The position numbers and the translations under genes are program-made. From Escherichia phage vB_EcoM_Bp10, in the sequence record MN122072: a stretch of DNA of 52,288 nt. The stretch is one strand, 5' to 3'. The notes under the pieces were generated by a model that worked only from the letters and a program-made list of their open reading frames with translations, had not been told where the DNA came from and did no database searches. Below, piece after piece: positions 3,730-45,143 of the stretch (position 1 is the stretch's first letter; the number at the start of each line of letters is the position of its first letter).

Positions 3730-4251
3730 ATGTCTTGTATGACTCAAGTTGTTGCTGTAAAGCGAGTGCATCCTAATGCGAAATTACCTGTGTACGCTAC
3801 TGCTGGCGCTGCTGCTGCTGACGTTTGCACTATCTCCGATAGCACTGTTGTTATCAATCCCGGCTGCTCTGCTGTTTTCGATACTGGCCTCCAATTCGAG
3901 ATTCCAGTTGGATACGAACTCAAAGTACATAGCCGTTCTGGTCACGGCTTTAAGTCTGGTATTCGCCTGGCAAACTGTACAGGAATTCTGGACTCCGATT
4001 ATCGTGGTAATCTTATGGTTAAGTTGCACAACGACTCGGACACAGCCTTTGTGGTTCAACCAGGTGAACGTATTTGTCAGGTGCAAGTTAGTAAAGCTAC
4101 TCAACACCATTTCGTTGAAGTTGACCGCTTGAATGCAACTGGTCGTGGTGAAGGTGGCTTTGGCTCAACTGGTCGTGTGGAACTTGGTCAGCATGAAAGA
4201 CCACATATTCCAGAAGGCTTGACAGTCCACAATCACAGCATTGCCAAGTAA
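3730..4251 (+). CDS. dut: dUTP diphosphatase (dUTPase)
   Basis: All five dUTPase motifs are visible: AGAAAADV, RSG, GILDSDYRGNL, QPGERICQ, RGEGGFGSTG. Confidence 0.85.
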   Translation: MSCMTQVVAVKRVHPNAKLPVYATAGAAAADVCTISDSTVVINPGCSAVFDTGLQFEIPVGYELKVHSRSGHGFKSGIRLANCTGILDSDYRGNLMVKLHNDSDTAFVVQPGERICQVQVSKATQHHFVEVDRLNATGRGEGGFGSTGRVELGQHERPHIPEGLTVHNHSIAK

Positions 4252-4290
4252 TATTCGACATTCTCAGTAACCAATTGGAACCTATCTGAA

Positions 4291-4620
4291 ATGAAACTGT
4301 CCTCACCTGTCGTAGTAAATAACCGCAAAGTTAAATTTGCATACCTCAAGTCTAATGTCACCTCCACTGGTGGCGGGACTTATCTCACCCGTGCACTTGC
4401 AGTTCGCAACGAAACAGGTGCGGATGTTATCGTTTTCATGCTTCCTCATGGTGAAAACACAATCAAGAACGTCGAACGTATCAAGCGTGGGCGCGAAGAT
4501 TTAATGTCGGCTGTTAAGCCGCTGATACTGCCATTCAAGATTGTGGTGGTTGTTGGTTCTACCCAAGCATATCTGGAAGATTTCTATAAAGATATGGCCT
4601 GGAGCGATATTAAATATTAA
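4291..4620 (+). CDS. hypothetical protein
   Basis: Clean ORF between dUTPase and a terminator-like hairpin; no recognisable motif. Confidence 0.45.
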   Translation: MKLSSPVVVNNRKVKFAYLKSNVTSTGGGTYLTRALAVRNETGADVIVFMLPHGENTIKNVERIKRGREDLMSAVKPLILPFKIVVVVGSTQAYLEDFYKDMAWSDIKY

Positions 4621-4637
4621 GCGACACGCGTAATTAG

Positions 4638-4667
4638 GGAGGCTATCTGGCCTCCTATCTTATTCGG
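4638..4667 (+). terminator. terminator-like hairpin (GGAGGC/GCCTCC) with T-rich tail
   Basis: 6-bp perfect stem, 6-nt loop, followed by TATCTTATT; sits between two genes. Confidence 0.4.
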
Positions 4668-4675
4668 AGTCGCTT

Positions 4676-4861
4676 ATGCGCACAATACAATGTCCTAACT
4701 GCCACTATGAAATTGCAGAAGATGATTTCATAACGCAGCAATGTCCTATCTGTGATTCATATATGCCACTAAACCGCCTGTATTTAAAGGCCGATTCTGG
4801 TTTAGGCAGCATCATTCGCATCAATCCCGTGCAAACTCAGCCATTAGTGGATTGTGATTAA
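4676..4861 (+). CDS. small zinc-ribbon protein
   Basis: CPNCHY...CPICDS, two CxxC pairs in 61 aa; immediately upstream of the large terminase gene. Confidence 0.45.
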   Translation: MRTIQCPNCHYEIAEDDFITQQCPICDSYMPLNRLYLKADSGLGSIIRINPVQTQPLVDCD

Positions 4862-4880
4862 AAACAAAGAGAACGAATCA

Positions 4881-6899
4881 ATGTCAAAGACTGATGACCT
4901 CGGACCGGAGTTTAATGATACAGTAGCCTCGTATCTTGCCAAGCACTACGGTGACGTATTAAAAGTCTCAAGAGAAAGATTCTGTATTCTATCTTTGCCA
5001 TTGCTCCGTCGATATATTTCAGAAAATACTGCAATAGTTGACAGCTATGAAGAACAAATTCAAGCAGAGTTAGAAGGCCAGGGTCTTGAAAACGATGCTG
5101 TACTGCGTTCCGTTTTCAGAGCACAACTTGAGCGTCTTCGCTCTGGCGACAAGAAAGACTCAACTGCCTATGCAGATGAGTTGAAGAAAGGTATTCAAGC
5201 AGGTGTTACTGACCGTGTTGCAGGTTCCACTTTGGAGGAACCAAACTCGGAACATGATAACACCGATGAACTTGTAGACAAGATTCTGCATGACCCACAT
5301 AACGTGGACCCAACTGTAATCCCTGCCAAGGTTGCAGAACGTGTTCGCAAAATCTTGATGAAAAGTTTCGAAGCCTTTGGTAAATGGCAGTTCCATATCC
5401 AGATGGGATTTCCATTTCAAGCACAAGACTTTCACGATGTAATATTCAGTGTTGGTCAGAAGGTTGTTGATGGCGAGATTGACCGCTTAATAGTGACCAT
5501 TCCTCCACGACACTCTAAGACACAGCTTATGAGTATTGCATTACCCTTGTATTCATTTTGCCACAATGAATCGAGCCATAACATTATCACCTCGTATGCA
5601 GAAGACGTTGTTCTTGAATCGAGTGGTTACATTCGTGCTGTAATGATGGACCCACTGTTCCAACGCATATTTCCGAAGGTGAGAATCGACCCCAACAAAC
5701 GTTCACTTGAGCGCTGGGGTACAACCAAAGCTGGAGTTATGCACGCAGTACCTACTGGTGGTAAGCTAACTGGTAAAGGTGCTGGTCTTCTTGTTGCAAA
5801 ATACTCCGGCTGTTTCGTGGTGGATGACGTTATCAAACCGAAAGATGCCTACTCTGACACAGTTCGAGCAGAAATCAACGACCGATTTGATAACACCTTT
5901 ATGTCCCGTCTTGCCAACGATGGTTGCATAACTGATTCGTACGGAAACCAAATTAAGTGCGCCCGTACACCAATGGTTATCATCATGCAGCGAGTTCATG
6001 ACCAGGATTTAGTTGGTTACATACTCCGTGGTGGCTCTTCTGACAAATACCATTATCTCAATATCCCAGCGATTATTGAGAAAGGCGTTGGAAGTGCCGA
6101 ATGGTATGATAAGTTAATCAAGAAGCAGAACTACACTCATGCCATTCCCATTCTGTACAATTTGAACAGGAAGGAAGAGAAGTCTGCATTATGGCCTTCA
6201 CGTAAGAGCTTAGAATCTCTGGAGGCAATGAAAGAGTCTAACCCATACACATACAATTCACAGTATGCTGGCGACCCATCTGCACAAGGCCACGGCCTTA
6301 TCAAAGAAGATTGGTGGCAAGAGTATGAGCCAGACGTTTTCGACAGAAGTCGCATAGTCAGAAGTTTTATCACAGCGGATACGGCATCAACTGCCAAATC
6401 CTATTCTGATTATTCGGTCCTTAAGCATTGGGGCGTGACTAAAGAGCGTGATGTTTATTGTTTAGATATTATGCTCGGTAAGTTTGAAACTCCAGAACTC
6501 AAGACTGCTATCATCGACTTCTGGAACAAATGCAACAAGTTGGACTTGAAGTGTGTGGGTTGTATTCCTCGTGCATTGTACATGGAAGACAAGTCTGCCG
6601 GACAATTCTTGAACCAACAATTTATTAGAGATGGGAGTGTCCGAGTTTTACCGCTGCCTCGTGATGGCATCAATGGTAATGACAAGGTAACTCGATTCCT
6701 TAACGCAATCCCATATTTCTCGCAAAAGAGAATATTCTTCCCTGCTGGTCATGAACACATTGACCACGTTAGACGTGAAATACTTGGATTCACTTCTTTG
6801 GGTAGTGGTACTGGACACGACGATTGTGTCGATAACGTTTCAGATATGGTTGCAATCGAATTCTCAGGCCCAAGTGCCAACTACTCCGCATGGATGTAA
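4881..6899 (+). CDS. terminase large subunit with N-terminal extension
   Basis: Walker A-like TIPPRHSKTQL, Walker B-like CFVVDD, C-terminal nuclease-like ITADTASTAK and GHDDCVD. Start taken at ATG 4881 (GAGA upstream); the ORF track begins at GTG 4854. Confidence 0.8.
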   Translation: MSKTDDLGPEFNDTVASYLAKHYGDVLKVSRERFCILSLPLLRRYISENTAIVDSYEEQIQAELEGQGLENDAVLRSVFRAQLERLRSGDKKDSTAYADELKKGIQAGVTDRVAGSTLEEPNSEHDNTDELVDKILHDPHNVDPTVIPAKVAERVRKILMKSFEAFGKWQFHIQMGFPFQAQDFHDVIFSVGQKVVDGEIDRLIVTIPPRHSKTQLMSIALPLYSFCHNESSHNIITSYAEDVVLESSGYIRAVMMDPLFQRIFPKVRIDPNKRSLERWGTTKAGVMHAVPTGGKLTGKGAGLLVAKYSGCFVVDDVIKPKDAYSDTVRAEINDRFDNTFMSRLANDGCITDSYGNQIKCARTPMVIIMQRVHDQDLVGYILRGGSSDKYHYLNIPAIIEKGVGSAEWYDKLIKKQNYTHAIPILYNLNRKEEKSALWPSRKSLESLEAMKESNPYTYNSQYAGDPSAQGHGLIKEDWWQEYEPDVFDRSRIVRSFITADTASTAKSYSDYSVLKHWGVTKERDVYCLDIMLGKFETPELKTAIIDFWNKCNKLDLKCVGCIPRALYMEDKSAGQFLNQQFIRDGSVRVLPLPRDGINGNDKVTRFLNAIPYFSQKRIFFPAGHEHIDHVRREILGFTSLGSGTGHDDCVDNVSDMVAIEFSGPSANYSAWM

Positions 6900-7114
6900 A
6901 TATGGCGGTTATCACTCGTTTAGATGCCCGCTCACGCAAGAACAACTCCTTCCAGATTCAAGATTTGGAAGGAAACATTTTATGTGTGATTGAGGCAGTT
7001 TCTACCACAGAGAGCGACTGTGTTAAGTTAAAGCACGAGTCAAATCTGCGACTCCACACCTCCGACAACATTCAAATTGTTAAGGGTAATGGAACTATTC
7101 TAAGGAAGAAATAA
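6890..7114 (+). CDS. hypothetical small protein
   Basis: 74-codon ORF overlapping the terminase stop and the portal start (TAATG); no motif. Confidence 0.3.
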   Translation: MDVNMAVITRLDARSRKNNSFQIQDLEGNILCVIEAVSTTESDCVKLKHESNLRLHTSDNIQIVKGNGTILRKK

Positions 7115-8430
7115 TGACTTCCAAGAAGAAAAATAATCTCTCTGTTAAAGTTGCAGATGGGTTAGAAAACCTTGTAACGGGGTTGGGCGGTCAGGCAGAT
7201 AAGTCCACTTTTAACCAGTGGACTTTCTCAAACAAGAACGCGAACTATCGCGAACTTATGAACCGCTTCCGTGAGGATTGGGTGGCACAGAAAGTGTGTA
7301 CCGTTATTCCTCAAGATATGACGCGTAAGTGGCGGCATATTGATACCGAAGAGGGACGCAAAGCGGATAAGAAACTTCGTATTCGTAAGCTGTTCCGTGA
7401 GGCGTATCAATGGGCCAGATTGTATGGGACTTCATTTGTTCTGCTCGACCTAAAAGGTACGGGCAAACTTGATACACCATTGCGACTGGATAACTTGAAG
7501 ACTGGGTGTATTAAATCCATGAGAGTTATTGACCGCTCACGCTTATTCGCCGCAGGGACTATGGTTCTGGACCCTTTGAGTCCTCACTATGGTTTGCCAG
7601 AGTACTACACTTTGGCTGGGTATCCCGGCTATATCCATTACACTCGTTTCCTTCGGTTCGAGGGTACTGAACTGCCACTGTTCGAATTCCAACGTAACAT
7701 GTGGTATTCCGATTCGGTACTTATTCCGCTGTTGAAAACGATTGACCAATTCTACACAACTGCCGCTGCTGCTGCCAGCCTTGCTCAAGAAGCCACAATT
7801 GATGTGGTAACTGTCGAAGGCTTACAATCTTTGCTCACATCACCGGAAGGTGAGGCTGCTGTGATGAAGCGCTTCAAACTCATGAAGCTGGCAAAGAGTA
7901 TTTATAACGTCTTAATTCTCGACAATACTGAGAAGTATGACACCAAGTCAATTGCACTGTCTGGTGTGAAAGATTTGATTTGGGAATACTTGAAGATAGT
8001 TGCTGCCGCAGTTGGTATTCCGGCTACACGTTTCCTTTCTGCATCTCCAGACGGTATGAATGCTACGGGCGAATCTGACCTCGTAAACTATATCGACTTG
8101 TTGACTGGCTTGCAGACTTCTGTGTTTGACCCTCGTTTAGATGTGGTAGACAAGATTGTCCAGGCGCACTTTGGCATTGAAGAATATAACTACGAATGGT
8201 TAGACATCTTCCCTGAATCCAATGTTGAGAAAGCGAAGCGAGCTAAAGATTTGGCATTTGCTGTTGACCTGCTGGTTAACAACGGCACCATTACCACGGA
8301 AGTTGCAAACGAAGTCATGTTCCATTCGGGCGTGTTCGGAACTTGTGACCTTGGTAAGCCAAATCCTAATCCTCCTAACATCCAAAAGGGTAACGCAAGT
8401 GAAGCAAAACCAAAACCTGGTTCAGCTTAA
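7114..8430 (+). CDS. portal protein (candidate)
   Basis: 438-aa ORF directly downstream of the terminase and upstream of scaffold-like and capsid genes; assigned by position and size, not by a verified motif. Confidence 0.55.
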   Translation: MTSKKKNNLSVKVADGLENLVTGLGGQADKSTFNQWTFSNKNANYRELMNRFREDWVAQKVCTVIPQDMTRKWRHIDTEEGRKADKKLRIRKLFREAYQWARLYGTSFVLLDLKGTGKLDTPLRLDNLKTGCIKSMRVIDRSRLFAAGTMVLDPLSPHYGLPEYYTLAGYPGYIHYTRFLRFEGTELPLFEFQRNMWYSDSVLIPLLKTIDQFYTTAAAAASLAQEATIDVVTVEGLQSLLTSPEGEAAVMKRFKLMKLAKSIYNVLILDNTEKYDTKSIALSGVKDLIWEYLKIVAAAVGIPATRFLSASPDGMNATGESDLVNYIDLLTGLQTSVFDPRLDVVDKIVQAHFGIEEYNYEWLDIFPESNVEKAKRAKDLAFAVDLLVNNGTITTEVANEVMFHSGVFGTCDLGKPNPNPPNIQKGNASEAKPKPGSA

Positions 8431-9463
8431 CGACGAAGATACCGTGAATGAAGTAGTTTTGTTGAACGACAAGGCTACTTTGACGACCCGTCGTTTACGT
8501 GACTCTGGCGAAATGATTGCAGAATGCACCATCGCCCGTACTGGCATCATGCTGTACAAGGCGAAAGAACTTGGTGAAATTGCAAAACATCTGGACCCAG
8601 AATCTATTTGCCGTGTTCGTACCAAGCCGGAAGTATTATTTGACGAAGCAACCATCGAAGGCTGTCGTTCAATCCCGGTTACTATCGGCCATCCGAAAAA
8701 TGATGTTAACATCAAGAACAACAAAGAACTCCAGAAAGGGTTCATCGAAGGGCGTCCAGTTGCAGACGGTTCTTTCTTAGCTGCATCAATCGTTTTGAAT
8801 GACGAGCAAGCTATTCGATTAGTTGATTCTGGTGTTGACCAAATCTCCTTGGGCCATAGTGCTGAACTGGCTGTATCAGAAGATGATGAAGCCGACTTCG
8901 ATAAAGTTCGCATTATCCCTAACCATGCTGCAATTGTTGTTCGTGGTCGTGCTCAGACTACTCGCATTGGTGACTCTGGTGAAGAGATTGCCATTGTTGA
9001 TAAGGCAACCTTTGACGTTGTTGAAGCAGAGCGTGATGCAGCGCTTGACAAGATTAGTGTCCTTGAACAGAAACTTGCTGATGCAGAAACTGCACGACTA
9101 TCCGATGAAGCTATTCAGGCTGAGGTAGACAAACGTGTAGTTGCTCGTACGGCATTGCTTGTTGATGTGGCCCGTCTTGGCGACGAGTTCTCCAACCTAG
9201 ATTTCTCCGGCAAGACCGATGCAGAAATTAAGTTGGCTGTAGTTAATAAATTGCATGACAAGGATTTCAGCGATAAGAGCGAAGACTATATCTCCGCCCG
9301 TTTCGATGCAGCTCTTGAAGATTGCGATTCCATTACTTTGGGAGATGCCCTGAATCAGTCTATGCAATTCTCTGCTAAGAAAGATTCAGAAGCTCGTAAA
9401 CCTAAAGTTTCTATTTCCGAAGAAGCTAACAAACGTCGTTTAGAACGCTTCAACTCTTTATAA
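8399..9463 (+). CDS. head scaffolding / prohead-processing protein (candidate)
   Basis: Sits between portal and capsid genes; C-terminal half is coiled-coil-like and charged. Start re-picked to GTG 8399 (AAGGG upstream); ORF track starts at 8222. Confidence 0.4.
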   Translation: MKQNQNLVQLNDEDTVNEVVLLNDKATLTTRRLRDSGEMIAECTIARTGIMLYKAKELGEIAKHLDPESICRVRTKPEVLFDEATIEGCRSIPVTIGHPKNDVNIKNNKELQKGFIEGRPVADGSFLAASIVLNDEQAIRLVDSGVDQISLGHSAELAVSEDDEADFDKVRIIPNHAAIVVRGRAQTTRIGDSGEEIAIVDKATFDVVEAERDAALDKISVLEQKLADAETARLSDEAIQAEVDKRVVARTALLVDVARLGDEFSNLDFSGKTDAEIKLAVVNKLHDKDFSDKSEDYISARFDAALEDCDSITLGDALNQSMQFSAKKDSEARKPKVSISEEANKRRLERFNSL

Positions 9464-24038: not shown

Positions 24039-24680
24039 ATGGCTGGTAAACATGGCTTAGATATGCTGCTTTCACAGTATGCACTATCGCCAAACCTTCG
24101 TAAGTATATTTCAATCTTCTTAGAAGAGTTTGCAGAAGTTAAACAGGCCATGACTGACTCAGTTAAGTACAGATACTTAGCAGATTCGTTCGGAGTCATG
24201 GTTGACGACCTTGCGTATATTGTGGGAGCTTCTCGTGTAATACAAGGTGCTGCGGCACTTGGGTACTTTGGCTTCTACGCCAACCCAGGTGCATTTCCTG
24301 CTGGTGATGACAACGACCCAGGTATTGGTGGTATTCTGAAATCAGATTACGACAAAGACTCTGGGGACTTTGTTCGAACAGACGGGCAGTTAAAGGATGC
24401 AATACGTGCCCGAATCATCAAGATAACTGGCAACTGCACCATTGAACAGCTTATCATGTATATTGAATTGGTCGTAGGAAGGAAGCTGAAACTCCAAATC
24501 GTAGAAGGGTTTCAGACAATGGACTACATTATTCATGAGGAGTTGTCTGTGGCCGAGAGAGTTCTCATGGCCTATATGCTCCCGAACTTTAAGCCTGTTG
24601 GAGTTAAGATTACCCTAAGAGATGCTAAAGGTAACATTGCTCTGGTTTATGGTTCCAAAGATTATCCTCCGGAGAAATAA
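24039..24680 (+). CDS. baseplate / tail protein I-like (candidate)
   Basis: 213 aa between baseplate-J-like and the first tail fibre gene. Confidence 0.4.
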   Translation: MAGKHGLDMLLSQYALSPNLRKYISIFLEEFAEVKQAMTDSVKYRYLADSFGVMVDDLAYIVGASRVIQGAAALGYFGFYANPGAFPAGDDNDPGIGGILKSDYDKDSGDFVRTDGQLKDAIRARIIKITGNCTIEQLIMYIELVVGRKLKLQIVEGFQTMDYIIHEELSVAERVLMAYMLPNFKPVGVKITLRDAKGNIALVYGSKDYPPEK

Positions 24681-25828
24681 TGACTCAACGTCTTAAGTTT
24701 AATTTTCCCTGGGCGCAAGATGGTGAAGTTAAAGACCCGGACTTGGATACCACTGCGCCAAGTTTTATCGAAAACAGGTACGCCAATCTGGGCTGGGAAG
24801 CTGAAAAGCCTCCCAATGAGTGGCAGAACTTCTTATCTCAAATTAGCGATTTGAAGATTATATCCCTGCTGTTCAGTGGCATTGCTGAGTTTGATTCAAG
24901 TGTGACTTATCAAGTTGGTGCAGTATCTTCCCTCAATGGTGTTGTTCGTGTATATACACCAACAGGTTGGGAAGAGGTGATGGACCTCAAGAGGGTTGAC
25001 TATCTTAATGACGTCAGTAACTTGAAGTCCCTCTACGATAGTCACTTGGCTGCAACCAATCCACATAAAGAAACTGTGGACACCATCACAGACAAAACTT
25101 ATAGCAAAACTGATATAGATGATGCCTTTGGAAGCGCCACAGACCCAAGGACCATAGTGTATCATAAGCTACAAACTGGCCGTGTACACCAAGAAACTCC
25201 ACAACAACTTGGAACACTTCCAACATCTGGTGGTAAGTTTTCCGGTCCTGTGTCGCTGTTGGCTGGGATGAAGTTTGGGACAAACGTCACAATTCGAATG
25301 AACCCAGGAAATGGGAGAATTGAGATGCGTGCAGGTAACAGGGTTCTATCCATTGATGCACTTGGCAATGTTCTGTGGAGCATAGTTGGTGGCGAAGAGT
25401 ATCCGGTGATGACGGAACTGAATTATTCAGAATTCCAGATTCGCTGGGGAAACAGGTTCGCACTTCCTGTGCCATACCTTGACATGAACATCACCAAAAC
25501 CTTAAACGACGCATCCTCCGTAAATGGCTGGACTATTACAACATCTGCCCCTCCTGTTTTCCAATCTGTAGATGGTGGACTTAGGGTAGATAACAACACA
25601 GTAACTTTCGAAGGCTTTCAGGTTGCAGCACCAGGAACTTTTGTGGTTTATGCTATGGATGGTAAAGGCAAGAAGTTGCGAGCTGTGGTAGATGCTCCTA
25701 GTGGAAACTACACATCAATGAGCACACTTCTAACAAACCTAGGCCTTGCAAATGCAACGTATGTATCAAGGATTACATACTACCCAAGACTGACAGCCTA
25801 CAATAAATCAATGTTAGCGAGCGTATAA
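24680..25828 (+). CDS. tail fibre protein
   Basis: Contains ATNPHKETVDTI, a tail-fibre-repeat-like NPH(K)xT motif. Confidence 0.55.
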   Translation: MTQRLKFNFPWAQDGEVKDPDLDTTAPSFIENRYANLGWEAEKPPNEWQNFLSQISDLKIISLLFSGIAEFDSSVTYQVGAVSSLNGVVRVYTPTGWEEVMDLKRVDYLNDVSNLKSLYDSHLAATNPHKETVDTITDKTYSKTDIDDAFGSATDPRTIVYHKLQTGRVHQETPQQLGTLPTSGGKFSGPVSLLAGMKFGTNVTIRMNPGNGRIEMRAGNRVLSIDALGNVLWSIVGGEEYPVMTELNYSEFQIRWGNRFALPVPYLDMNITKTLNDASSVNGWTITTSAPPVFQSVDGGLRVDNNTVTFEGFQVAAPGTFVVYAMDGKGKKLRAVVDAPSGNYTSMSTLLTNLGLANATYVSRITYYPRLTAYNKSMLASV

Positions 25829-27202
25829 ATGGCGATTCGTCCTAAACTGAACCGAGTCTGGACTTCAAACAACTCTGTCGCAAGACGTGACCCAGGGGAT
25901 GAAAAATATCTCAAGGGTTGGGTTGCGGAGATTCCGACCTATCAGGTTCTTAACTACCTGCAATACAAGATTGACACCACAATGCTTGCACAAGCAGAAC
26001 GTGGAATCTTTGAGTGGGGCAGTGATGTAAGTTATGGCGTTGGTAGTTTGGCTTGGGACGAAACAAACAAAACGATTTATGTTTGTACTGTCGCCAACCC
26101 CAACAAAACCTTACGCCCAAGTGCAAACTCTGCACAGTGGAGTCCAAGCTCCATTCAAGTTTCTCGTGCGAATTACGACTCAATTGTTGCAGCAATCAAT
26201 GCACACATTGCAGACGTAACCACAAACCCGCACAAGGTAACTGCTGCACAAATTGGTGCATACAACAAGTCTGAACTTGACGCGATTGTGGCCAACTATC
26301 GTGCAATGGTTCAAGCGCACGTAACGGATTACAACAATCCACACAAACTTACTGCGGTCCAAGTTGGTGCTGTCCCTGCGGCTGGTGGTGCATACACTGG
26401 TGAAGTTACCTTCACAACCGTGTTTCTGAATGATTCCAAGACTGCCCAGATTGTTAACGACGGTGGATTGTATCTTCGCAATGGAAGCTACTATCTTGGA
26501 ATCAACGGGGCCACAGGAAATGCAGAAGTCGGAACAGCTTCAAGCAAGTCCCCTGTCGTAACTGACTTAACATTCCCGACACTCAAAGTTGCAACTGAAC
26601 CTGAGTATGCAGTGCCGGAACCAATTGTTAACATGCCCCTTATTGGCAGCATCAACCTGCGAGCCGGGATTGGTAAAGTCAACAGCAGTGCCAACGAGCC
26701 AGTATATGCACCGCAGTTTGGTAATGCACTATTAGTAAGACATGGTGCTGCTTTTGGGATACGCGGCACTGAAGAGGTACTGGCAGGTGGTAGACAAGCG
26801 ACACTTGCCATTGACACCATATTCTCCGGTACTCCGATTGGAGGTAATTGGTTGTGGGACTTTGGTCTTGGTTGGTTTACAATTCTTGTAACACCCAACA
26901 GGGATGTCCGGTGTGAGATTAAAGGGACAGGAACTGTTGCAGTATCTAATGGTGTAACCTTGCCGATGAACGAGTGGGTTCGCATTGTTGCTACATACAA
27001 TGCGGCAACAGGGAGGGTTTGTCTGTACATCAATGGCGTAAAAGCATTCGACCTTACCCCAAGTAACCTCCCAACAACAGGATTTAGGGAGGGGACTATC
27101 TATAATTCGGTATCAGCATCATATCCTAACATCTCCACATACTTGCGAAACTTCCGAATATGGTCTGACGAGTTAACAGACAAACAAGTTTCAACCTTAT
27201 AG
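25829..27202 (+). CDS. tail fibre protein with NPHK-VT-AxQ(I/V)GA repeats
   Basis: Two clear repeats TTNPHKVTAAQIGAYNKSELD and YNNPHKLTAVQVGAVPAAGG. Confidence 0.6.
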   Translation: MAIRPKLNRVWTSNNSVARRDPGDEKYLKGWVAEIPTYQVLNYLQYKIDTTMLAQAERGIFEWGSDVSYGVGSLAWDETNKTIYVCTVANPNKTLRPSANSAQWSPSSIQVSRANYDSIVAAINAHIADVTTNPHKVTAAQIGAYNKSELDAIVANYRAMVQAHVTDYNNPHKLTAVQVGAVPAAGGAYTGEVTFTTVFLNDSKTAQIVNDGGLYLRNGSYYLGINGATGNAEVGTASSKSPVVTDLTFPTLKVATEPEYAVPEPIVNMPLIGSINLRAGIGKVNSSANEPVYAPQFGNALLVRHGAAFGIRGTEEVLAGGRQATLAIDTIFSGTPIGGNWLWDFGLGWFTILVTPNRDVRCEIKGTGTVAVSNGVTLPMNEWVRIVATYNAATGRVCLYINGVKAFDLTPSNLPTTGFREGTIYNSVSASYPNISTYLRNFRIWSDELTDKQVSTL

Positions 27203-27211
27203 GAATTAAAA

Positions 27212-28249
27212 ATGGCTAAAGGTTATTCTTTAGATGCGTTGGTTAGTGAGCACTACATGAAGTCTCGAGTTGCACTAGGGACAACAAACTTAGACACATA
27301 TACCGGTATGGACAATATCGGTGTGTTCTACCAATACTCAAATGCCAACGCAACAAGTGAAAATGGGTATCCGGCAGGTGCACAAGCAGGTTCCCTAGAA
27401 GTTCTTCCCCACAACGCCAACAAAGATGGTCATGTGCTGCAAAGGTACACAAACTATGCAGATAAACGTATGTGGGTAAGAAGCCAGTCTGGTAACCAAA
27501 GTTATGATGGCTTCTACGAGTGGACTGAGTTCGTTAACATGAACAACATCTACAATGCCATCTACCCAATCGGCATTGTATTGCAGTTTGATAATGCCAC
27601 CAACCCGAACAACGTGTTCACCGGTACTGTGTGGGAACAAATCACCGATGGTCGAGCCGCCCGTGCTGCGACTGGTCCGGAGGCTGGCACGGCTGACGGT
27701 AAGATTGGTTCTGTAGCTGGGTCTGATACCGCCGCCATTGCTGTGGCTAACCTACCAGGCCACACACACGGAATGCAAAACCACACTCACGGTATTGCAG
27801 CCCACTCCCACACGATGTCCCACACCCACACCATCAACCACGACCACGGTGCAGTTGCATCAAGTTCATCTGGTGGACACCATCATAGCGTAAGCGGAAG
27901 TACATCATCTGCTGGGGACCACACGCACTCAATAGGTGGTGGTGTATCTGTTTCTGCTGGTAGTGGTAAAACCATTAACCAGGACCACAGTGGTGTAAAC
28001 ACCCGTTCTGCTGGTGCTCACACACACTCAATAAGTGGGTCCACTAACTGGACTGGCGACCATACACACACTGTGGACCTCCCAAACTTCACAGGTACAA
28101 GTGGTGGCTCTAGCGCAGGTAGCACTGGTGGCACTGCACTGACCACTGGGGGTCCTAGCAATAACGAAACAACCTCCACTGGTGGCGGAACTGCACTCAA
28201 TGTGCGTAACTCTTCACACTATTATGCCTTCTGGAAACGGACGGCTTAA
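27212..28249 (+). CDS. tail fibre distal protein with His-x-His repeats and Gly/Ser/Thr-rich tip
   Basis: Run of HTHG, HTHG, HSHT, HTHT, HDHG, HHHS, HTHS, HTHS, HTHT motifs, then a Gly/Ser/Thr-rich C-terminus. Confidence 0.6.
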   Translation: MAKGYSLDALVSEHYMKSRVALGTTNLDTYTGMDNIGVFYQYSNANATSENGYPAGAQAGSLEVLPHNANKDGHVLQRYTNYADKRMWVRSQSGNQSYDGFYEWTEFVNMNNIYNAIYPIGIVLQFDNATNPNNVFTGTVWEQITDGRAARAATGPEAGTADGKIGSVAGSDTAAIAVANLPGHTHGMQNHTHGIAAHSHTMSHTHTINHDHGAVASSSSGGHHHSVSGSTSSAGDHTHSIGGGVSVSAGSGKTINQDHSGVNTRSAGAHTHSISGSTNWTGDHTHTVDLPNFTGTSGGSSAGSTGGTALTTGGPSNNETTSTGGGTALNVRNSSHYYAFWKRTA

Positions 28250-28256
28250 GGAAACA

Positions 28257-28598
28257 ATGGAACGATTATCCATTCAGATGTTTGTGGACCTGATGCACCA
28301 ATACGGCGTATGGCACGGGCTATTGGCTGGTCTGACGGCCTTAATCCGTGGGGCATATGAAAGTGAAGGCTTAAGCAAGGCGCTGCTAGATGCGGCGCTG
28401 TGCAGCTTAATCGGCTTGTTTGCCTTTCATGTTGCTGGCACATTTGAAACCTTCACGACTAACGTCACTATGCAGTTAGTATTGGCTATCGTGATTGGTG
28501 TCATCGGTGCAAACCTCATTATCACAACTGTCAGGGAAAGTTTCTCTGGCGCAATCAAACAACTTAACCCTTTAACGTGGTTCAAGAAGGCACGATGA
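28257..28598 (+). CDS. holin (lambda S-like, three TM segments)
   Basis: Three hydrophobic segments and a charged C-terminus; LIRGAYESEGLSKALLDAALCSLIGLFAF resembles lambda S; directly upstream of a lysin. Start at ATG 28257; ORF track starts at 28182. Confidence 0.65.
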   Translation: MERLSIQMFVDLMHQYGVWHGLLAGLTALIRGAYESEGLSKALLDAALCSLIGLFAFHVAGTFETFTTNVTMQLVLAIVIGVIGANLIITTVRESFSGAIKQLNPLTWFKKAR

Positions 28599-44580: not shown

Positions 44581-45019
44581 CAGTTGGATATTTCTAGAGG
44601 ACGGACGAGCACACTGGAATGTCTTCAATTGGTTTAGTGTGAGAAGCTATGGCAATTTGAAACGTAACTCCTTGGGGAAGTGCTCCTCTGGATTTCCCTC
44701 CACACAGGAATCTCAAGCCTGTGGCAGCGACTTCGAAGCTGCACTGCGTAACCTAAATTCACCCTAAAGTGAGTTGCCCTGAGTATGGAAATAAACTGCT
44801 CATAACCGATGGTATCTACAAAGGTAGATTAAATCAGGTTGCCTGTTGGTACTTGGGTTCAACACCTGCTTGCACTCGCAAAGTAGTGCCTCGTACCTGA
44901 GATGAAGTGAGTCGGGACCATCAATCCCACGTTATGCCAAAACATAGTAGGCGGCTCACAGATTCTACAAGCCTCGCAGTTCGGGAAAACCTGCGTTATC
45001 AAAACCCCCTTTTTTATTT

Positions 45020-45113
45020 GGACGAGTAGCTCAGAAGGTTTGCATTGTGCTCAGTCAGGTAGAGCAATCTGTTCGACAGATGTGTCGTTGGTTCGAATCC
45101 AACCTCGTCCACC
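45020..45113 (+). tRNA. tRNA-like gene, non-canonical (duplicated D-arm 5' segment, 5-nt anticodon loop)
   Basis: GGACGAG (45020-26) pairs with CTCGTCC (45104-10); T-arm GTTGG-TTCGAAT-CCAAC (45087-103); canonical D-arm GCTCAGTCAGGTAGAGC (45049-65) preceded by an extra TAGCTCAGAAGG; anticodon stem ATCTG/CAGAT has a 5-nt loop. Confidence 0.35.
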
Positions 45114-45143
45114 CACTTTAATAATAGCAATACTGGAGTCCTT

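What the first reader, a model, noticed from the sequence alone, without database searches (positions are those of the whole stretch)
27212..28249. Tail fibre tip with nine consecutive His-x-His motifs and a Gly/Ser/Thr-rich C-terminus
The dense HxH array is characteristic of metal-coordinating fibre tips that intertwine in trimers. The following Gly/Ser/Thr-rich tail is low-complexity and probably forms the receptor-contacting end.
Basis: partly seen in the sequence, partly recalled or inferred. Interest (0 to 1): 0.45.

Follow-up and report, generated by a model that had tools for sequence, protein, structure and literature searches.

The report
T4 gp37-type tail-fibre needle protein
This gene encodes a small phage tail-fibre protein whose nine His-x-His motifs match the metal-binding "needle" of phage T4's long tail fibre; the design is familiar, and the end that meets the host is most likely the hypervariable loop in the middle of the His array, not the Gly/Ser/Thr-rich C-terminus.

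Summary
ORF 27212-28249 (+) encodes 345 aa with nine HxH motifs (aa 184-286) and a 53% Gly/Ser/Thr C-terminal stretch. Composition-preserving shuffles give 1.6 HxH on average and never nine. All 18 flanking histidines are invariant in 119 homologues.

The window is Escherichia phage vB_EcoM_Bp10 (Chaseviridae, Carltongylesvirus). The protein is the orthologue of phiEcoM-GJ1 gp72 and is annotated "putative tail fiber protein".

It is a sequence homologue of the T4 gp37 receptor-binding needle (PDB 2XGF, E=1e-10).

In gp37 the chain climbs the needle, forms the tip and returns to the collar. Here the segment that aligns to the gp37 tip (aa 240-269) is hypervariable: 27% identity, indels and at least 15 unrelated types. 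The Gly/Ser/Thr-rich C-terminus is 85% conserved. Its length tracks the number of ascending HxH units (about 9.6 aa per unit, r=0.98), so it behaves as a structural return strand.

Nine HxH is the commonest count among the 149 newly listed representative relatives. Verdict: an ordinary new member of a known fibre family, of low interest.

The parts
27212..28249 (+). Whole gene: 345-aa tail-fibre protein, orthologue of phiEcoM-GJ1 gp72, identical to the GenBank 'putative tail fiber protein' of Escherichia phage vB_EcoM_Bp10
   Evidence: PHROG phrog_2097 'tail fiber protein' E=5e-45
27212..27253 (+). aa 1-14, conserved N-terminal peptide MAKGYSLDALVSEH; inferred attachment element
   Evidence: 92% identity across 119 homologues. 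The same peptide is fused directly to the collar in knob-less relatives (P0123; 4HA13 gp77), to two knobs (P0137), or to unrelated C-terminal domains (P0153, P0232). The attachment role is inference.
27254..27532 (+). aa 15-107, globular beta 'knob' domain; optional and variable
   Evidence: AF2 pLDDT 89-95 for aa 21-100. Weak Foldseek matches to fibre knob domains (AS12 tailspike 6EU4 E=0.005; R2 pyocin fibre 6CL6 E=0.02). 55% identity and 11 types at 70% identity. Called a 'pyocin knob domain' for the SKA49 orthologue in PMC10282059.
27533..27760 (+). aa 108-183, N-terminal part of the collar domain (gp10/gp12/gp37 type)
27761..27847 (+). aa 184-212, dense ascending ladder of five HxH (spacing 7, 7, 6, 6 aa); proximal stem
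   Evidence: 86% identity, one sequence type. A similar ascending HxH array (8-10 aa spacing), followed by His-free sequence over the aligned stretch, is in A-1(L) LTF 8KEC.
27848..27928 (+). aa 213-239, distal ascending stem with HxH #6 and #7 (GGHHHSVSGSTSSAGDHTH)
   Evidence: Aligns to T4 gp37 913-931 GGHTHSGSGSTSTNGEHSH.
27929..28018 (+). aa 240-269, tip loop: predicted distal pole and receptor-contacting part
   Evidence: Aligns to the gp37 tip subdomain 932-959 (topology from PMC6957217). 27% identity, 2.27 bits column entropy, indels after aa 246 and 256. At least 15 unrelated types, 30-44 aa long. Lowest nucleotide identity between Bp10 and Bp7.
28019..28069 (+). aa 270-286, distal descending stem with HxH #8 and #9 (AHTHSISGSTNWTGDHTH)
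   Evidence: Aligns to gp37 966-982.
28070..28186 (+). aa 287-325, His-free Gly/Ser/Thr-rich return strand of the proximal stem
   Evidence: 85% identity. The C-terminal stretch aa 287-345 forms one sequence type. Across relatives its length is 9.6 aa per dense ascending HxH unit, r=0.98, n=13.
28187..28246 (+). aa 326-345, C-terminal strand that re-enters the collar (…ALNVRNSSHYYAFWKRTA)
   Evidence: pLDDT 93-95 with a beta-strand at aa 339-343 in the module-only model. N333, H336, Y337, Y338, A339, W341, K342 and R343 are invariant.
24680..25828 (+). Upstream fibre gene 1 (382 aa), paralogue of fibre gene 2 at the N-terminus
   Evidence: phrog_8147 'tail fiber protein' E=5e-117; GJ1 gp70
25829..27202 (+). 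Upstream fibre gene 2 (457 aa), with a C-terminal ConA-like lectin domain
   Evidence: phrog_8147 E=1e-121; Pfam Laminin_G_3 E=8e-10 at aa 346-455
28258..28598 (+). Holin immediately downstream; there is no room for a fibre-chaperone gene between the two
   Evidence: Pfam Phage_holin_3_1 and phrog_126. The ATG at 28258 with a GGA upstream is read from the sequence. The mechanical ORF list starts at GTG 28182.

Best explanation
The gene encodes a complete, short tail-fibre subunit of a Chaseviridae myovirus, built like the distal end of the T4 long tail fibre. In order it has: a conserved 14-residue N-terminal peptide (inferred anchor to the baseplate or to another fibre); an optional knob domain; a gp10/gp12/gp37-type collar domain; and, inserted into that collar, a needle. 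Three chains are expected to intertwine. Each HxH motif would give two histidines per chain, so the trimer gives six, which form one octahedral metal site on the three-fold axis. Nine HxH motifs would therefore give a column of nine metal ions (Fe2+ in gp37; the metal here is unknown). The chain climbs the needle carrying seven of the nine HxH, forms a 30-residue tip loop (aa 240-269) at the distal pole, and then descends. The descent carries two HxH next to the tip, followed by a His-free Gly/Ser/Thr-rich strand that lies alongside the dense ascending ladder. The last ~20 residues re-enter the collar. The tip loop would be the receptor-contacting, host-range-determining part. The whole needle (aa ~150-330) behaves as an exchangeable cassette. 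Shown: the motif count and its conservation, the homology, the variability pattern, the arm-length covariation and the cassette exchange. Inferred: the trimer, the metal sites, the identity of the metal, receptor binding by the tip, and the mode of attachment.
Confidence: 0.85

Rival explanations
1. One reading: a linear fibre in which the HxH region forms the shaft and the Gly/Ser/Thr-rich C-terminus is the free, low-complexity, receptor-contacting end.
For: The C-terminal 59 residues are 53% Gly/Ser/Thr. In many other phage fibres the C-terminus is distal. The stem part of the return strand is modelled with low confidence.
Against: The segment is 85% conserved and of a single sequence type, while the loop aa 240-269 is hypervariable. 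Its length is tied to the number of ascending HxH units (r=0.98). The last 17 residues are modelled at pLDDT above 90 with the collar and contain eight invariant residues. The homologous gp37 chain returns to the collar.
Confidence: 0.04
2. Same structure, different role: the protein acts like a short tail fibre (gp12-like). It would bind a conserved LPS-core element for irreversible adsorption after the two upstream fibres (one with a lectin domain) have bound the O-antigen, rather than being the primary host-range determinant.
Against: The tip is extremely diverse (at least 15 unrelated types within one genus-level group) and is swapped between near-identical phages. That is not what one expects for a binder of a conserved core structure. 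Sequence similarity is to gp37 rather than to gp12.
Confidence: 0.25
3. The protein is not attached to the baseplate directly. It would be the distal half of a jointed fibre, docked through its N-terminal peptide onto one of the upstream fibre proteins, as gp37 is joined to gp36 in T4.
For: The N-terminal 14 residues are 92% conserved and portable between different architectures. phrog_2097 aligns this protein to the C-terminal half (positions 301-600 of 644) of longer fibres. The upstream fibres are conserved in position.
Against: No gp36 homologue was found. A-1(L) LTF shows that a fibre of this size with a gp37-like arm can bind the baseplate wedge directly. No evidence bears on the contact itself.
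Confidence: 0.35
4. The HxH array is a compositional accident of a His/Gly/Ser/Thr-rich low-complexity region and binds no metal.
For: Within the His-rich stretch alone, shuffles already give 3.4 HxH on average. HMMER reports strong compositional bias.
Against: Nine was reached in only 88 of 100,000 regional shuffles and never in whole-protein shuffles. All 18 histidines are invariant while the middle residues vary. Spacing is regular. Alanine substitution of the homologous gp37 histidines H929 and H931 abolishes plaque formation (PMC6957217).
Confidence: 0.02

Closest known systems
T4 gp37 C-terminal receptor-binding needle (domains D10-D11, PDB 2XGF)
   Same: There is significant sequence similarity over the collar, stem and tip. 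Both have GxHxH units on the two arms flanking a Gly-rich tip loop. Both end in a C-terminal collar strand. In both phages the gene lies just upstream of the holin. Tequatrovirus gp37 proteins are reported to carry seven to nine HxH motifs (PMC6563267).
   Different: T4 has 7 HxH, split 3 ascending and 4 descending, with 9-aa spacing on the descending arm. Bp10 has 9, split 7 ascending and 2 descending, with a dense 6-7-aa ladder on the ascending arm and a His-free Gly/Ser/Thr return strand. The Bp10 tip loop is 4 residues shorter. Bp10 is a 345-aa protein, not the end of a 1026-aa one. No gp38, gp57A or gp36 homologues are present.
Anabaena myophage A-1(L) long tail fibre gp34 (PDB 8KEC)
   Different: The sequence match is weak (E=0.003). 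The N-terminal 'shoulder' (155 aa) shows no detected similarity to the Bp10 peptide plus knob. It has no distal HxH pairs flanking the tip. The paper does not discuss metal sites.
T4 gp10 / gp12 / gp11 collar-type C-terminal domains (PDB 2FKK, 1OCY, 1EL6; Pfam PF21939 Gp10_C)
   Different: gp10 has no HxH needle inserted in the collar. The Bp10 score on PF21939 is 25.1 bits, just under the cut-off of 27.
R-type pyocin fibre knob domains (PDB 6CL6)
   Same: The N-terminal domain aa 15-107 gives weak Foldseek matches to fibre knobs (E=0.02, probability 1.00). The SKA49 orthologue was described as carrying a 'pyocin knob domain' (PMC10282059).
   Different: This concerns the N-terminal domain only. 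The pyocin fibre ends in a lectin-like foot, not in a metal-ladder needle.

Membership tests
gp37-type metal-ladder needle (T4 gp37 D10-D11) | Significant sequence similarity to the solved needle | tested here: met
   2XGF phmmer E=1.3e-10 and profile E=8.5e-9. There are 3049 representative relatives at E<=1e-3 in the 50% identity library.
gp37-type metal-ladder needle (T4 gp37 D10-D11) | Repeated, conserved HxH motifs on both arms of the stem | tested here: met
   Nine motifs, 7 before and 2 after the tip loop, with all 18 His invariant.
gp37-type metal-ladder needle (T4 gp37 D10-D11) | Needle inserted into a split collar domain, with the C-terminus returning to the collar | tested here: met
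gp37-type metal-ladder needle (T4 gp37 D10-D11) | Variable tip subdomain inserted between the arms, forming the distal pole | tested here: met
   aa 240-269 aligns to gp37 932-959. It is the hypervariable, indel-rich segment. Its distal position is inferred.
gp37-type metal-ladder needle (T4 gp37 D10-D11) | Intertwined homotrimer with each HxH triplet coordinating one metal ion octahedrally on the axis | not testable with these tools
   Only monomer prediction is offered. The monomer stem has pLDDT 50-68.
gp37-type metal-ladder needle (T4 gp37 D10-D11) | Bound iron (Fe2+) | not testable with these tools
   The metal cannot be read from the sequence. From my own recollection, not checked here, the related gp12 site binds zinc.
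gp37-type metal-ladder needle (T4 gp37 D10-D11) | Assembly assisted by gp57A and gp38 (a property of T4, not strictly defining) | tested here: not met
   tblastn with T4 gp38, gp57A and gp36 against the window gave a best E of 0.19. No gene lies between the fibre and the holin. No fibre chaperone is annotated in flopper. tblastn is a weak test for a short coiled-coil protein such as gp57A.
Pfam PF21939 Gp10_C | Score at or above the gathering threshold (27 bits) | tested here: not met
   25.1 bits, E=3.8e-5, at aa 114-211. Most homologues, including the identical database entry P0001, carry a precomputed PF21939.2 hit. This is therefore borderline rather than absent.
Pfam PF07484 Phage Tail Collar | Match to the model | tested here: not met
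   Not among the Pfam hits at E<=0.1.
R-pyocin-type fibre knob (N-terminal domain only) | Structural match of aa 15-107 to a solved knob domain | tested here: inconclusive
   Foldseek 6CL6 E=0.022, TM 0.24; 6EU4 E=0.005. No significant sequence-family hit was found.

The most novel reading that the evidence does not exclude
The proximal stem may be a distinct 'one-armed' variant of the metal ladder. Five consecutive metal sites would be supplied only by the ascending strand at 6-7-residue spacing and wrapped by a His-free Gly/Ser/Thr strand at about 9.6 residues per level. The 345-aa fibre would also fold without any gp38- or gp57A-type chaperone. If both hold, it would be a minimal, self-assembling nine-metal needle whose tip and stem can be swapped as a cassette, which could serve as a scaffold for host-range engineering.
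Probability: 0.3. Interest if true: 0.35.

Novelty: new member of a known kind. Interest (0 to 1): 0.2.

Why it matters
The main value is in correcting the map of this protein. Anyone who wants to retarget Carltongylesvirus phages, which are being characterised as candidate biocontrol or therapeutic agents against APEC, UPEC and STEC, should exchange or mutate the loop aa 240-269. Alternatively they could swap the natural cassette aa ~150-330. The Gly/Ser/Thr-rich C-terminus is not the place to work. The result also shows that the gp37-type needle exists outside the T4-like phages as a stand-alone 345-aa fibre with no recognisable dedicated chaperone. It further shows that the family tolerates very different divisions of HxH sites between the two arms. 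None of this changes current understanding of how such fibres work.

Tried and rejected
- **Trimer prediction.** I submitted three copies joined by Gly-Ser linkers.
- **Full-length monomer AF2 with 54 close homologues.** Only the knob was confident, and the needle was below pLDDT 60.
- **Module-only AF2 with a more diverse alignment.** The collar and the C-terminal strand became confident. The stem stayed at pLDDT 50-68.
- **First arm-length analysis.** My first version used a simple regular-expression anchor and was noisy (r=0.37), because the anchor was misplaced in some proteins, including T4. I replaced it with HMM-defined anchors.
- **The 9.6-aa-per-level regression.** It uses 13 of the 16 dense-ladder representatives. 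I left out P0135 (a run of consecutive His), and P0169 and P0261 (alternating 6/14 spacing).
- **Virion evidence.** The 4HA13 LC-MS/MS table lists only proteins with at least 50% coverage and contains no fibre protein, so it is uninformative.
- **Papers not held.** The phiEcoM-GJ1 genome paper and the 2XGF structure paper are not in the library.
- **'His box' recombination literature.** From my own recollection, early T-even work by Tétart, Krisch and colleagues described this. I could not verify it: the first search found no paper, and in the second no listed paper contained the term.
- **Other searches.** NCBIfam gave no hit. Tandem Repeats Finder found only two short, weak DNA repeats in the gene, so the array is not a recent DNA-level duplication.
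- **'Ferrojan horse' idea.** This is the proposal that iron-loaded fibres mimic siderophores (PMC11705849). I considered it and set it aside, because nothing here bears on it.

Full report
**What is there**

The coordinates 27212-28249 are exactly one + strand ORF of 345 aa. It has an ATG start and an AGGA nine bases upstream. The translation carries nine HxH motifs, starting at aa 184, 191, 198, 204, 210, 223, 237, 270 and 284. The last 59 residues are 53% Gly/Ser/Thr.

The count is not a by-product of composition:
- 100,000 shuffles of the whole protein gave a mean of 1.6 HxH and a maximum of 7.
- Shuffles of the His-rich stretch alone reached nine only 88 times in 100,000.
- In 119 full-length homologues (59-100% identity) all 18 flanking histidines are invariant, while the middle residue varies.

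The motifs are not evenly consecutive. There is a dense ladder of five (spacing 7, 7, 6, 6), then two more at 13-14 residues, then a 30-residue gap, then two more.

**Where it comes from**

The identical protein is in GenBank as [quoted passage not shown], on a 52,288-bp contig, which is the length of the window. The region is 94% identical to phage Bp7 and 87% identical to phiEcoM-GJ1, whose records are classified in Chaseviridae, genus Carltongylesvirus.

The gene is the orthologue of GJ1 gp72. It is the last gene of the baseplate and fibre module. Two paralogous fibre genes lie upstream (phrog_8147; the second ends in a ConA-like lectin domain). Holin and endolysin follow directly. The same order is found in flopper and in the more distant 4HA13.

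**What it is**

A search against PDB sequences gives one clear relative: the receptor-binding needle of the T4 long tail fibre, gp37, PDB 2XGF. The phmmer E-value is 1.3e-10 over aa 160-320, and a profile of 54 homologues gives 8.5e-9. A BLASTP alignment without composition correction runs from aa 107 to 321 against gp37 795-1013. It puts five Bp10 HxH motifs exactly on gp37 HxH motifs (191→883, 223→915, 237→929, 270→966, 284→980).

A second, weaker hit is the long tail fibre of cyanophage A-1(L), PDB 8KEC (E=0.003).

The segment before the array (NIYNAIYPIGIVLQFDNATNPNN…) matches the gp10 C-terminal, collar-type domain:
- Pfam Gp10_C scores 25.1 bits, just below the cut-off of 27.
- Most homologues, including the identical database entry, carry a precomputed hit to that family.

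**Topology**

PMC6957217 gives the gp37 layout:
- The collar D10 is residues 811-881 plus 1010-1026.
- The needle D11 is an insertion into the collar.
- Within the needle, the stem is 882-931 plus 960-1009.
- Seven iron atoms lie along the needle, held by the histidines of the three chains.
- Alanine substitution of H929 or H931 is lethal.

Transferring this layout through the alignment gives the following for Bp10:

| Part | Residues |
|---|---|
| Collar | ~108-183 plus ~326-345 |
| Ascending stem | 184-239 (seven HxH) |
| Tip | 240-269 |
| Descending stem | 270-325 (two HxH, then a His-free Gly/Ser/Thr stretch) |

Four independent results agree with this fold-back layout.

2. *Arm lengths.* In 66 representative relatives anchored by small HMMs for the two collar halves, the lengths of the ascending and descending arms co-vary. 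Spearman is 0.79 and the Theil-Sen slope is 0.93. The arms range from 76 to 183 and from 10 to 110 residues.
3. *Return strand.* I took 13 of the 16 representatives with the same dense one-armed ladder; the three left out are named under what I tried. In these, the His-free return strand lengthens by 9.6 residues for each added 6-7-residue HxH unit on the ascending arm (r=0.98). This is close to the 9-residue spacing of consecutive HxH on the descending arm of gp37.
4. *Variability*.
   - The tip, aa 240-269, is 27% identical on average. It holds 14 of the 23 insertion columns in the alignment and falls into at least 15 unrelated types of 30-44 residues.
   - The dense ladder is 86% identical and the return strand 85%. 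The ladder and the C-terminal stretch aa 287-345 each form a single sequence type.

So the Gly/Ser/Thr-rich region is a conserved structural strand whose length is set by the number of metal levels. It is not a loose receptor-binding tail.

**Exchange unit**

Bp10 and Bp7 are 98-100% identical in nucleotides across both upstream fibre genes, the first 90 codons of this gene, and the lysis genes. Identity falls to 55-72% between aa ~150 and ~330, with the minimum and the indels at the tip. The needle is therefore swapped as a cassette bounded by the two halves of the collar.

Within the close homologues, 11 knob types and 15 tip types occur in 41 combinations, so the two assort independently. 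The authors of the SKA49 genome noted the same mosaic in its orthologue: a conserved 3' end, a unique middle and a "pyocin knob domain" near the N-terminus (PMC10282059).

**The N-terminal part**

Residues 21-100 fold confidently (pLDDT 89-95) into a small beta domain. It gives weak Foldseek matches to fibre knobs, including the R2 pyocin fibre.

The first 14 residues are 92% conserved and are portable between architectures:
- They are fused directly to the collar in knob-less relatives (P0123, 237 aa; 4HA13 gp77, 212 aa, at the same genomic position).
- They are fused to two knobs in P0137.
- They are fused to unrelated C-terminal domains in P0153 and P0232.

I infer that this peptide is the attachment element and that the knob is optional. 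Whether it docks on the baseplate wedge or on one of the upstream fibres is open. Direct wedge binding is what the N-terminal "shoulder" of the similarly sized A-1(L) fibre does (PMC10966104).

**How ordinary it is**

The profile finds 3049 representatives (50% identity clusters) at E<=1e-3 and 369 at E<=1e-10. These proteins are 170 to 1,480 aa long, and the module usually lies at the C-terminus.

Among the 149 newly listed representatives the HxH count ranges from 0 to 29, and nine is the most frequent value (24 proteins). Tequatrovirus gp37 proteins with seven to nine HxH motifs have already been reported and interpreted through 2XGF (PMC6563267). HxH motifs in fibres of unrelated phages have also been discussed as iron sites (PMC11705849).

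Bp10 differs from T4 in three ways:
- The sites are divided 7 up and 2 down, against 3 up and 4 down in T4. Sixteen of 63 analysed representatives have a dense ascending ladder (at least three spacings of 8 aa or fewer); fourteen of these have only one or two descending HxH. 8KEC has a comparable ascending HxH array at wider (8-10 aa) spacing, followed by His-free sequence over the aligned stretch.
- The protein is small and self-contained.
- No recognisable gp38, gp57A or gp36 homologue is present (best tblastn E=0.19). There is no gene between the fibre and the holin, and no fibre chaperone is annotated in flopper.

**What remains untested**

- The trimer, the octahedral geometry and the identity of the metal are inferred from homology only.
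- Presence in the virion could not be documented.
- The receptor is unknown. A related phage, MLP1, depends on O-antigen (PMC8849078), but nothing assigns that dependence to this fibre rather than to the two upstream ones.

**Verdict**

This is a new member of a known kind and is of low interest.

Noticed in passing
window 27660-28200: Between Bp10 and its near-twin Bp7, only the needle part of this gene (aa ~150-330) is diverged (55-72% nucleotide identity against 98-100% on both sides). This looks like a clean cassette replacement bounded by the two halves of the collar domain.
   Followed up: yes
window 30566-30654 (also 30341-30378 and 30544-30581): Three direct repeats of about 37 nt, spaced 26 nt apart, and a second repeat pair lie in the 646-nt gap between the nrdB-like gene and the T7-like RNA polymerase gene. 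Phage flopper has 'repeat_region' features annotated at the same place. They could be origin iterons or a promoter or regulatory array.
   Followed up: no
window 45019-45115: ARAGORN calls a single tRNA-Leu(CAG) that is 97 nt long, which is unusually long for a tRNA. It may be an extended variable arm, an intron or a miscall.
   Followed up: no
window 24680-27202: Two tandem paralogous fibre genes (382 and 457 aa) share an N-terminal region and NPHK-containing repeats. The second ends in a ConA-like lectin (Laminin_G_3) domain. The phage therefore carries three different fibre proteins, and their division of labour is unknown.
   Followed up: partly
window 28182-28598: The mechanical ORF for the holin starts at GTG 28182, inside the fibre gene. 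An ATG at 28258 with a GGA upstream, 9 nt after the fibre stop codon, is the more likely start.
   Followed up: partly
L003 (Bp7, NC_079181.1) 4158-5156: The Bp7 orthologue is annotated as 332 aa, but tblastn aligns the full 345 aa of Bp10 starting 45 nt upstream of the annotated start, including the conserved MAKGYSL N-terminus. The annotated start in Bp7 is probably too far downstream.
   Followed up: partly
PP952070.1 (hits H15 and H31): A record named 'Staphylococcus phage Pel53', with host Staphylococcus hyicus, is 87% identical in nucleotides to this E. coli Carltongylesvirus region and carries the same fibre (65% aa identity). The host assignment looks doubtful, possibly through a contaminating coliphage or mislabelling.
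   Followed up: no
L002 (T4) 4543-8878 compared with window 27212-28598: In T4 the holin gene t lies just downstream of genes 37 and 38. In Bp10 the holin directly follows the gp37-like gene. The two phages share a fibre-then-holin order, but Bp10 lacks the gp38 chaperone gene.
   Followed up: partly
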